From Luteimonas sp. (GTDB lineage: Bacteria; Pseudomonadota; Gammaproteobacteria; Xanthomonadales; Xanthomonadaceae): 28,106 bases of DNA. The first letter of the stretch is position 1, and each line of letters opens with the position of its first letter. The notes under the pieces were generated by a model. The model was not told the origin of the DNA and searched no databases. It worked only from the letters and a program-made list of their open reading frames with translations. The stretch covers positions 1 through 28,106 of the forward strand of contig JBDSEX010000033.1 of assembly GCA_039919835.1 (NCBI GenBank), read 5' to 3'. A program made the translations under genes and the position numbers. Of this stretch, positions 26,303-28,106 are shown piece after piece.

Positions 26303-26692
26303 CTACGCCAACGAGCGCCGGCCGGTGCGCTGGACGGCCAGTTGCTCCATGACCTCCACCAGCGACAGGCGCGCGCGCACCGGCGCCTCGCGGAAGGCCA
26401 GTACCAACCGCAATTCCAGGGCGTCCTCGACCAGCAATGCGTCGGCCGTCGCCACCGAGTCCAGTTGCGCGTCCTTGGACATTGCCATCGAGCCGCGGCC
26501 GGTCGCCAGCCATTCGAACTGCACCCCGGTGATCATCGCGATCTCGCGCAGGTGCGCTGCGGTCGGATGCTTGCCCTGCGGCGCTTCCCAATGGCTGACC
26601 GCGCTGCGCTGCACACCCACGCCCTGGGCCAGTTTCTGCTGCGACAGGCCGGCGTGCCGACGTGCCAAACGAATCCTCTGCTGGTCTGTCAT
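26303..26692 (-). CDS. XRE-family HTH transcriptional regulator
   Basis: RIRLARRHAGLSQQKLAQGVGVQRSAVSHWE…FEWLATGRG; SD GGGGGAG; no S24 peptidase domain. Confidence 0.93.
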   Translation of the reverse strand: MTDQQRIRLARRHAGLSQQKLAQGVGVQRSAVSHWEAPQGKHPTAAHLREIAMITGVQFEWLATGRGSMAMSKDAQLDSVATADALLVEDALELRLVLAFREAPVRARLSLVEVMEQLAVQRTGRRSLA

Positions 26693-26757
26693 CGCTCCCC
26701 CGCGAGATCGGACTGGATCACCTTACGCGACGTATTTCGCCCCGCGAACGGCTGTTG

Positions 26758-26830
26758 TTACCAATACTATCGCAGTGAATTACATTAGACATTACTGGTC
26801 TGCTTTTGGTAGCAGAATTGAGTATTGGTA
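26758..26830. promoter_or_regulatory. AT-rich control region with nested inverted repeats and a candidate + strand sigma70 promoter
   Basis: 26751-26830 is 30/80 GC. TACCAATACT (26759-68) pairs with AGTATTGGTA (26821-30); TCTGCT-N6-AGCAGA at 26799-816; TTACCA-N17-TACATT at 26758-86. Confidence 0.6.
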
Positions 26831-27051
26831 CCTGTTTTCCGCACGTCTGCAAGGGCGTTGGAGGGGACGCTTACCAGAATTATGCAGGGACGGGTGGGGG
26901 GTCCACTTCGCAGCGACATGATTACGGGGTATTTCTATCGCCGCTGACAGGGATGTCGGCTTCCCACCGCATTCGGGGGGAACGCGGCACCGCCACAGGA
27001 CGGCAGTGATCGCATCAAAAGCGCGCATGTCTGCCATGCGCGCTTTTTTTT
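26793..27051 (+). ncRNA. Candidate CsrA/RsmA-sequestering small RNA
   Basis: Six GGA motifs; hairpins GCTGACA-GGGA-TGTCGGC, CACCGCC-ACAGGAC-GGCAGTG and GCGT-TGGAGGGG-ACGC; strong terminator; no convincing ORF. The 5' end is uncertain. Confidence 0.6.
27017..27051 (+). terminator. Intrinsic terminator (potentially bidirectional)
   Basis: AAAA-GCGCGCATG-TCTGC-CATGCGCGC-T8. Confidence 0.92.
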
Positions 27052-27148
27052 CGGTCCGAACCGCTGCGCCAGTGCGTCTACTGCCGCTGGACGCGTCATG
27101 GGGTCGGCCCTGCATCGCCCGCATGACCATCGCCAGGCACGCCCGGCT

Positions 27149-27174
27149 CTTGAAAGCCCCCAGTTGCGCCCCAT
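27149..27174 (+). promoter_or_regulatory. Sigma32 promoter of groESL
   Basis: CTTGAA-N14-CCCCAT, an exact consensus match upstream of chaperonin genes. Confidence 0.88.
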
Positions 27175-27219
27175 CCTTCCTGCATCCTGGCCAAGCCGGG
27201 TTTTCTTGTGTCCACGATG

Positions 27220-27246
27220 CTGGCAGTCGATCACTGCGACTGCTAA
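27220..27246 (+). promoter_or_regulatory. CIRCE-like HrcA operator
   Basis: CTGGCAGTC-N9-GACTGCTAA compared with TTAGCACTC-N9-GAGTGCTAA; lies in the groES leader. Confidence 0.78.
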
Positions 27247-27294: not shown

Positions 27295-27582
27295 ATGAAT
27301 ATCAAACCCCTCTACGACCGCGTCGTCATCAAGCGCATGGAAGAAGAAAAGATGTCCGCCGGCGGCATCGTCATCCCCGACACCGTCACCGAGAAGCCCA
27401 TCAAGGGTGAAGTGGTCGCGGTTGGCGAGGGCAAGGCGCTCGACAACGGCAGCACCCGCGCGTCCAAGGTCAAGGCCGGCGACAAAGTGCTGTTCGGCAA
27501 GTACAGCGGCACCGAGGTGAAGCTCGACGGCATCGATTTGCTGGTGGTCAAGGAAGACGACATTTTCGCGGTGCTCGGCTGA
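27295..27582 (+). CDS. groES: Co-chaperonin GroES
   Basis: [18 protein letters not shown] and [15 protein letters not shown]; SD GAGG. Confidence 0.99.
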
Positions 27583-27590
27583 TTGCCGAG

Positions 27591-28106
<516 letters not shown>

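What the first reader, a model, noticed from the sequence alone, without database searches (positions are those of the whole stretch)
26793..27051. Unannotated CsrA/RsmA-sponge-like sRNA upstream of groESL
Seen: a strong + strand terminator (27017-51) with no + strand gene to terminate. Upstream are six GGA motifs (26860, 26865, 26888, 26951, 26979, 26998). GCTGACA-GGGA-TGTCGGC (26943-60) is a 7-bp stem containing ACAGGGATGT; CACCGCC-ACAGGAC-GGCAGTG (26988-27008) and GCGT-TGGAGGGG-ACGC (26855-70) also put GGA in loops; CAGGGACG occurs at 26885. Established: CsrA/RsmA binds ACARGGAUGU with GGA in hairpin loops, and CsrB and RsmX/Y/Z are multi-GGA RNAs with intrinsic terminators driven by GacA/UvrY. 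Inference: an Rsm-type antagonist RNA controlled by the adjacent XRE protein instead, since no TGTAAG-N6-CTTACA GacA box is visible. That would be an XRE-sRNA-RsmA module. Whether it corresponds to a known Xanthomonas sRNA such as RsmU could not be checked.
Basis: partly seen in the sequence, partly recalled or inferred. Interest (0 to 1): 0.82.

Follow-up and report, generated by a model that had tools for sequence, protein, structure and literature searches.

The report
XRE-linked GGA-hairpin small RNA gene
Between a regulator gene and the groES chaperone gene lies a real, uncatalogued gene for a ~112-base RNA, conserved across many Lysobacter-type bacteria, that shows the loop motif bound by the global regulator CsrA/RsmA and is probably a decoy for it.

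Summary
However, the GGA count is no higher than chance (P=0.38). The three upstream GGAs lie in poorly conserved DNA outside the RNA.

The conserved unit is window 26941-27052 (+), about 112 nt. It has a hairpin with loop GGGA (ACAGGGAUGU), a second stem-loop, a hairpin with loop ACAGGAC, and the terminator.

A covariance model built only from other genera finds this spot (E 9e-7). It is the only hit in the window's own genome assembly (69% complete).

Strong matches occur in 55 of 151 sampled genomes of the family, in about 25 genera, and in none of 107 genomes from other families of the order. Stems covary, and GGA is kept in the loop of the first hairpin in 74 of 81 RNAs. No ORF is conserved and Rfam has no match.

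In 51 genomes the RNA lies divergent to the XRE gene, 171-284 nt away, including genomes where groES is elsewhere. Palindromic operators sit at fixed distances from the RNA. No GacA box is present.

RNA-seq contigs from a relative cover exactly this RNA.

Binding to CsrA is untested, and the window's copy is a reduced one with 2 exposed GGAs. This is a new sequence family of a known kind. Earlier scan notes on CsrA-sponge candidates concern other RNAs on other DNA.

The parts
26303..26692 (-). XRE-family regulator gene (129 aa): N-terminal HTH plus two long C-terminal helices. It is the conserved divergent partner of the RNA gene.
   Evidence: Pfam HTH_3, E 3.4e-10. Model with pLDDT 81; nearest solved folds are SinR, 434 and P22 c2 repressors. 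Orthologues (>=165 bits) occur in 58 of 150 family genomes.
26757..26771 (.). Operator-like site GTTACCAATACTATC (family motif GYTAC-N5-GTARC), centred 180 nt upstream of hairpin 1.
   Evidence: The motif is found 159 times against 25+-5 in shuffles across 85 loci, peaking at -181, -139 and -67. That the XRE protein binds it is inferred.
26799..26813 (.). Second operator-like site TCTGCTTTTGGTAGC, centred at -138. It is kept even in the most diverged species of the genus.
26821..26832 (.). Half-site AGTATTGGTACC, the inverted copy of the first site's left arm, centred near -117. This genus has no site at -67.
   Evidence: Read from the sequence.
26907..26935 (+). Candidate promoter of the RNA: TTCGCA, 17 nt, TATTTC. 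Not verified.
   Evidence: This block is conserved within the genus while the DNA just upstream is not. A family-wide -10-like cAAtaT lies 10-15 nt before hairpin 1. The scan tool found no consensus sigma-70 site here.
26941..27052 (+). The conserved small RNA gene, about 112 nt.
   Evidence: R1 scores 42.4 bits, E 8.7e-7, with no sequence of this genus in its seed. R2 scores 58.5 bits and gives the only hit in the window's own genome assembly (69% complete). MFE -54.8 kcal/mol, z -4.64.
26943..26960 (+). Hairpin 1: 7-bp stem with loop GGGA. ACAGGGAUGU matches the CsrA SELEX core ACARGGAUGU.
   Evidence: GGA is in this loop in 74 of 81 family RNAs, and all 4 modelled stem pairs show double changes.
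26961..26982 (+). Stem-loop UUCCC...GGGAA. It holds the 26979 GGA inside a stem and aligns with the family's GGGGA strand.
26984..27013 (+). Hairpin with loop ACAGGAC (GGA at 26998). It aligns with the family's most conserved GGA, present in 76 of 81 RNAs.
   Evidence: This GGA is lost in one species of the genus, where the loop reads AAAAGAC.
27017..27055 (+). Intrinsic terminator: 13-bp stem, 5-nt loop, T8.
   Evidence: The stem covaries across the family; 9 of 10 pairs show double changes.

Best explanation
Window 26941-27052 (+) is the gene for a ~112-nt non-coding RNA. It belongs to an uncatalogued family found in Lysobacter, Luteimonas, Pseudoxanthomonas, Vulcaniibacterium and related genera.

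The RNA is probably transcribed from its own promoter just upstream of hairpin 1 and ends at the intrinsic terminator. Its conserved feature is GGA shown in hairpin loops of the CAnGGAnG type. The most likely action is therefore binding of the CsrA/RsmA dimer, which keeps it away from mRNAs. That is the Csr/Rsm decoy mechanism.

Transcription is most likely set by the divergently encoded XRE-family protein, acting through GYTAC-N5-GTARC palindromes, and not by a GacA/UvrY-type box.

Shown here: the gene, its extent, its conservation, its structure, the placement of GGA, the linkage to XRE, and an abundant RNA in a relative. Inferred: CsrA binding, the exact start, and the XRE-operator link and its sign.
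For: Homology and extent:
- The seed of model R1 holds no sequence of this genus, yet R1 finds 26941-27052.
- R2 gives a single hit in the window's own genome assembly (69% complete).

Structure:
- 94.7% of cells are paired, against 82.5% in shuffles and 32-57% with slid partners.
- 24 of 26 pairs show changes on both sides.

GGA placement (81 distinct RNAs):
- GGA is in the hairpin-1 loop in 74 of 81 RNAs, in the junction between helices 3 and 4 in 76, and in the hairpin-3 loop in 57.
- In single-sequence folding, GGA has a mean unpaired probability of 0.53, against 0.27 for GG[CGU].

Non-coding and uncatalogued:
- 59 of 81 RNAs have no closed ORF at all.
- Rfam gives only terminator-level noise.

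Decoy-like evolution:
- Two metagenome-assembled genomes carry 4 and 5 tandem units (29 GGA in about 650 nt). The GGA loops are kept while the rest drifts.
- XRE-linked loci that the model misses still hold GGA-rich, terminator-capped stretches.

CsrA:
- An intact 75-aa CsrA is encoded in this genome.

Expression:
- In two transcriptomic runs of a relative, short contigs of high word depth tile only L051 2150-2268, from the hairpin-1 loop to the terminator. One run has no contig over the 60 nt upstream.

XRE link:
- 51 of 58 genomes with the XRE orthologue have the RNA, always divergent and 171-284 nt away.
- The RNA stays next to XRE where groES is elsewhere.
- Operator motifs peak at -181, -139 and -67.
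- These motifs are missing at the four loci that lack XRE.
Against: - No binding data exist.
- GGA number is only modestly above expectation in the family (4.8 against 3.2) and not above chance in the window.
- The window's copy has lost the family's hairpin 3 and the hairpin-2 GGA. One species of the genus keeps a single loop GGA.
- The family's hairpin-2 loop holds GGA in only 29 of 81 RNAs.
- The GGGGA strand is predicted to be paired.
- The covariation alignment was fitted to the model, and the sequences are related to one another.
- The RNA-seq evidence comes from strandless contigs of another species. No run holds this organism's locus.
- In the window's genus no operator sits at -67.
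- Four genomes keep the RNA without the XRE gene.
Confidence: 0.6

Rival explanations
1. It is a base-pairing small RNA. The conserved G-rich loops (GGA, GGGGA) act as seeds that pair with C/U-rich stretches of target mRNAs, and CsrA plays no part.
For: The RNA is a compact, terminator-capped, abundant, stand-alone sRNA. The window's copy shows only 2 exposed GGAs, too few for a classic multi-site sponge. GGA enrichment is modest.
Against: What is conserved is a 3-nt motif in hairpin loops of 4-8 nt closed by covarying stems, not a longer single-stranded seed. The flanking loop letters fit CAnGGAnG. Tandem amplification to 4-5 units and wholesale sequence turnover with GGA retained suit a titrating RNA better than a seed-target pair.
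Confidence: 0.17
2. It is a structured RNA that binds some other protein, or works in cis on the XRE gene. For example, its transcription or its 5' part could interfere with XRE expression. On this reading the GGA motifs are a by-product of G-rich composition.
For: There is tight divergent linkage to XRE. One RNA-seq contig runs from the XRE gene into the first 30 nt of the RNA gene, so overlapping transcription is possible.
Against: GGA is twice as exposed as other GG-triplets. It is held at the same loop positions across about 25 genera. The RNA persists in four genomes without XRE.
Confidence: 0.13
3. It is not an RNA gene. On this reading it is an orphan terminator plus chance hairpins, or a leader or insulator of groESL, or a small-protein mRNA.
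For: The GGA count in the window is at chance level. An 18-codon ORF overlaps the hairpins. groES lies 240 nt downstream.
Against: Family-wide covariation is seen. There is a single model hit per genome in most genomes. The RNA is present where groES is not adjacent. groES has its own sigma-32-type promoter and CIRCE-like repeat after the terminator. No ORF is conserved.
Confidence: 0.03

Closest known systems
RsmY / RsmZ (and RsmX) of Pseudomonas
   Same: They are stand-alone genes of 110-130 nt. Several GGA motifs sit in hairpin loops and between helices, and a rho-independent terminator closes the RNA. A CsrA-family protein is present. Copy number can rise by tandem duplication, as reported for rsmX-2 in P. 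brassicacearum (PMC7911923, abstract seen).
   Different: No sequence or covariance-model similarity was found; Rfam 15 gives no hit even at E<=10. No TGTAAG-N6-CTTACA box lies within 330 nt upstream in any of 86 loci. Instead there is a dedicated divergent XRE gene with phased palindromes. The window's copy has fewer exposed GGAs.
CsrB / CsrC of Enterobacteria
   Same: The proposed principle is the same: an RNA that holds CsrA dimers on GGA loops.
   Different: By my own knowledge CsrB is about 370 nt with about 18-22 GGA and depends on BarA/UvrY. Here a unit is about 112-130 nt with 2-8 GGA. Only the 4-5-unit tandem arrays in two metagenome-assembled genomes approach CsrB in size.
RsmU (sRX061) of Xanthomonas campestris
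   Same: It is an RsmA-binding RNA from the same order, it is also absent from Rfam, and it also has only 3-4 GGA motifs (PMC7694677).
   Different: RsmU is processed from the 3' UTR of the comEA (XC1332) mRNA, and its authors report it only in Xanthomonas. The present RNA is a separate gene beside an XRE regulator. None of the 80 best XRE loci comes from Xanthomonas. The two sequences could not be compared because no RsmU sequence was in hand.
BswR control of rsmZ in Pseudomonas aeruginosa
   Same: An XRE-type regulator with an HTH and two C-terminal helices binds the promoter of an Rsm RNA and raises its transcription (PMC3985676).
   Different: bswR is not adjacent to rsmZ, and BswR needs GacA and acts against MvaT. 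The XRE protein here shows no special likeness to BswR: BswR is absent from the PDB profile hits and ranks 47th in the fold search at E 0.05.

Membership tests
Csr/Rsm-type CsrA-titrating sRNAs (functional class) | Several GGA motifs exposed in hairpin loops or single strands | tested here: met
   Family: the median is 5 GGA per RNA, 2-3 of them with unpaired probability >0.5, and loop positions are conserved. Window copy: 2 in loops and 1 in a stem, a weak pass.
Csr/Rsm-type CsrA-titrating sRNAs (functional class) | Non-coding, stand-alone transcript ending in an intrinsic terminator | tested here: met
   Terminator; no conserved ORF; RNA-seq contigs confined to the unit in a relative.
Csr/Rsm-type CsrA-titrating sRNAs (functional class) | Binds CsrA/RsmA and relieves its action | not testable with these tools
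   Only the presence of an intact csrA gene was shown.
Csr/Rsm-type CsrA-titrating sRNAs (functional class) | Promoter with a GacA/UvrY box (TGTAAG-N6-CTTACA) | tested here: not met
   No match with <=2 mismatches in 330 nt upstream of 86 loci. Seven loci match with 3 mismatches, at scattered positions.
Rfam CsrB, CsrC, RsmX, RsmY, PrrB_RsmZ and other catalogued sRNA families | Score at or near the family's covariance-model threshold | tested here: not met
   No hit at gathering score in the window. At E<=10, only terminator-level matches to unrelated families appear in the window and in two relatives.
RsmU (Xanthomonas) | Processed from the comEA 3' UTR; confined to Xanthomonas | tested here: not met
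   No + strand gene lies upstream, and the RNA has its own promoter-like block. The named loci are from Lysobacter, Luteimonas, Pseudoxanthomonas and related genera. The definition is taken from PMC7694677.
BswR-like XRE activators of Rsm RNAs | Specific sequence or fold kinship of the XRE protein to BswR (PDB 4o8b) | tested here: inconclusive
   The overall plan is the same (HTH plus two C-terminal helices). However, 4o8b ranks 47th (E 0.05, TM 0.43) behind SinR, 434 and P22 c2.

The most novel reading that the evidence does not exclude
Lysobacter-type bacteria may carry a self-contained two-gene cassette: an XRE-family transcription factor and, divergent from it, a CsrA-decoy RNA. The promoter of the RNA would be driven from a helix-phased operator centred about 50, 55-57, 66-67 or 77 bp (mostly 66-67) upstream of hairpin 1. 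On this reading the cassette, not a Gac-type two-component box, sets free CsrA/RsmA levels in this branch of the order. It would also be able to grow by tandem duplication into a CsrB-sized array.
Probability: 0.4. Interest if true: 0.72.

Novelty: new variant of a known kind. Interest (0 to 1): 0.62.

Why it matters
RsmA/CsrA governs motility, secretion and antibiotic or virulence traits in Xanthomonas and its relatives. What holds it in check in this order has been unclear.
- A 2014 study states that no rsmB homologue had been found in Xanthomonas (PMC3937308).
- The one antagonist described since then, RsmU, is a 3'-UTR fragment reported only from Xanthomonas (PMC7694677).

The RNA found here is a concrete, easily testable candidate in about 25 genera. 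Among them are culturable Lysobacter species (L. enzymogenes, L. antibioticus), for one of which transcriptome data probably already exist. It comes with a candidate dedicated regulator and operator.

If it holds, it adds a non-Gac way of controlling a Csr/Rsm decoy RNA. It also gives genome annotators a covariance model for a gene that is missing from Rfam.

Tried and rejected
- Rfam: searched at gathering and at permissive thresholds. Nothing but terminators.
- Sequencing runs holding the window's own locus: only small shares, probably groES. There is therefore no expression data for this organism.
- MAFFT alignment of all 51 RNAs (A4) with RNAalifold: only the terminator came out. The structure emerged only from a 25-sequence subgroup (A6) and from model-guided alignment.
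- Weak model hits of 30-38 bits in other genera and other families of the order: on inspection these are 3' ends of coding genes plus terminators, so they were not counted.
- GacA box: not found.
- Sigma-54 promoter reading of the TGG..TTGC-like strings before hairpin 1: the spacing is off by one, so I rejected it by eye.
- Kinship of the XRE protein to BswR: not shown.
- Small-ORF reading (MSASHRIRG..., 18 aa): not conserved.
- groESL leader or attenuator reading: rejected, because the RNA stays with XRE where groES is elsewhere and groES has its own promoter.

Full report
**What is in the window**

The XRE gene (26303-26692) is on the - strand and groES (27295-27582) on the + strand, with 602 bp between them. 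A strong + strand terminator sits at 27017-27047, followed by T8. After it come a CTTGAAA...CCCCAT sigma-32-type promoter and a CIRCE-like inverted repeat that belong to groES.

Rfam 15 gives nothing beyond terminator look-alikes.

**True extent**

Three species of the same genus conserve the spacer at 75-80% identity, from the operator region up to the terminator and not beyond. Inside it, 26840-26905 varies and has indels, while 26906-27052 is well kept. That variable stretch holds the GGAs at 26860, 26865 and 26888.

A fourth, more distant species keeps only three islands: GCTTTTGGTAGC, a 22-nt exact match over hairpin 1, and the terminator. Its genome was flagged unpublished, but the locus is identical to a public record.

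I built a covariance model (R1) from 25 RNAs of other genera. It places the window's RNA at 26941-27052 (42.4 bits, E 8.7e-7). The broader model R2 gives 58.5 bits and no other hit in the window's own genome assembly (69% complete). This 112-nt stretch folds into four hairpins (-54.8 kcal/mol, z -4.64).

**A family**

A search with the XRE protein returned 80 named loci from Lysobacter, Luteimonas, Noviluteimonas, Novilysobacter, Marilutibacter, Cognatilysobacter, Pseudoxanthomonas and Vulcaniibacterium. Almost all carry a terminator 260-390 nt from the XRE start, preceded by GGA hairpins.

The consensus structure, from RNAalifold on the sequence-only alignment A6, has these elements:
- hairpin 1
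- hairpin 2
- a closing helix (GGGG with CUCC) around hairpin 3 and an unpaired GGA
- the terminator

On the 86-sequence model-guided alignment (81 distinct rows):
- 94.7% of cells are paired, against 82.5% in shuffles and 32-57% when partners are slid.
- 24 of 26 pairs show changes on both sides.

That alignment leans towards the model and the sequences are related to one another, so the numbers overstate. The direction is nevertheless clear.

**GGA placement**

GGA is found at these positions among the 81 distinct RNAs:

| Position | RNAs with GGA (of 81) |
|---|---|
| Hairpin-1 loop (typically CAnGGAnG) | 74 |
| Junction between helices 3 and 4 | 76 |
| GGGGA strand of the closing helix | 64 |
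| Hairpin-3 loop | 57 |
| Hairpin-2 loop | 29 |

In single-sequence partition folding, GGA has a mean unpaired probability of 0.53, against 0.27 for GG[CGU]. The loop motif fits the CsrA SELEX consensus RUACARGGAUGU and the RsmE site A/UCANGGANGU/A; both consensus strings are from my own knowledge.

The window's copy keeps the three best-conserved GGA positions but has lost hairpin 3 and the hairpin-2 GGA. It is a reduced member of the family.

**Not coding, not a groES leader**

59 of 81 RNAs have no closed ORF. In L. enzymogenes, L. antibioticus and others, groES is not nearby, yet the RNA still sits beside XRE.

**Expression**

No run holds the window's own locus. For the L. enzymogenes locus L051, I laid two transcriptomic runs of one organism on the region:
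- Short contigs tile only 2150-2268, which runs from the hairpin-1 loop to the U-tract on the - strand.
- Their word depths are 250-1070, against 24-70 for the long contigs over the flanking genes.
- One run has no contig over 2269-2330.

Contigs are strandless and their depths are crude, so this is support and not proof. It favours a start at hairpin 1. This fits a -10-like cAAtaT found 10-15 nt before hairpin 1 across the family, and TTCGCA-17-TATTTC at 26907-26935 in the window.

**Link to XRE**

Among 151 sampled genomes of the family:
- Strong RNA hits (>=49 bits) occur in 55 genomes, about 25 of 64 genera.
- XRE orthologues occur in 58 of the 150 genomes scored.
- 51 genomes have both. 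In all 51 the two genes are on one contig, divergent, and 171-284 nt apart.
- These tallies include two genomes flagged unpublished (G001, G111).

None of 107 genomes from other families of the order has a strong hit; the weak ones are gene-end terminators.

The palindrome GYTAC-N5-GTARC occurs 159 times against 25+-5 expected. It peaks at -181, -139 and -67 from hairpin 1, with smaller groups at -77, -57 and -50, which are about one helical turn apart. The four loci that have the RNA but no XRE gene lack these sites. In the window the sites lie at -180 and -138, with a half-site near -117.

**Further hints for a titrating role**
- Two metagenome-assembled genomes carry 4 and 5 tandem units. 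The 5-unit array has 29 GGA in about 650 nt, and its inner units lack good terminators.
- Vulcaniibacterium gelatinicum has a minimal version of about 55 nt, with two perfect sites.
- Two XRE loci that the model misses hold long stretches with about 10 GGA each.

So what persists next to XRE is the combination of GGA hairpins and a terminator, rather than a fixed sequence.

**Comparison with what is known**

The RNA works like RsmY/RsmZ but is not a member of any Rfam family. It has no GacA box. It is not RsmU.

BswR shows that an XRE-type protein can drive an Rsm RNA. The protein here is no closer to BswR than to SinR or phage repressors. The genome encodes a canonical 75-aa CsrA.

**Verdict**

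| Claim | My odds |
|---|---|
| A real, conserved, structured sRNA gene | about 0.95 |
| It acts by binding CsrA | about 0.6 |
| It is controlled by the XRE protein | about 0.6 |

It is a new sequence family with an unusual control arrangement, within a well-known kind of regulator.

Noticed in passing
window 27149-27246: groES has its own control elements after the sRNA terminator. These are a sigma-32-type promoter (CTTGAAA at 27149, CCCCAT about 16 nt later) and a CIRCE-like inverted repeat CTGGCAGTC-N9-GACTGCTAA (27220-27246). Both are conserved in the genus and in other genera.
   Followed up: partly
window 27583-27730: The 148-nt groES-groEL spacer holds four GGGAA repeats (27592-27628). 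They pair imperfectly with UUCCC repeats (27676-27712), and a T9 run follows just before the groEL ribosome-binding site. It is a long intercistronic hairpin with GGA motifs on the mRNA strand. A diverged species of the genus has an unrelated spacer.
   Followed up: partly
L090:1581-2229 and L098:1705-2221 (- strand): The sRNA unit is amplified to 5 and 4 head-to-tail copies between XRE and groES in two metagenome-assembled genomes. The 5-unit array holds 29 GGA in about 650 nt. The inner units lack good terminators, so the array may be one long transcript.
   Followed up: partly
L113 (same as L086, Vulcaniibacterium gelatinicum), about 215-260 nt from the XRE start: A minimal version of the RNA. 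ACACGGAUGU is followed, 24 nt later, by a GACAGGGAUGUC hairpin that also serves as the terminator.
   Followed up: no
L123 (G008:C3) and L124 (G095:C5): In two of three species of one genus the XRE gene is missing: cutA is followed directly by the sRNA and groES. The operator motifs are absent too. This is a natural test of the operator-XRE link.
   Followed up: partly
L051:2235-2265: One RNA-seq contig turns back on itself at 2265, inside the hairpin-1 loop, forming a perfect palindrome. It may be a snap-back cDNA at an RNA 5' end or an artefact of the GACGUC self-complementary core.
   Followed up: no
L119 (G007) and L122 (G123), upstream of XRE: These are long, divergent GGA-rich stretches (about 10 GGA each) beside XRE orthologues. 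The covariance models barely detect them, so the family is wider than the models.
   Followed up: no
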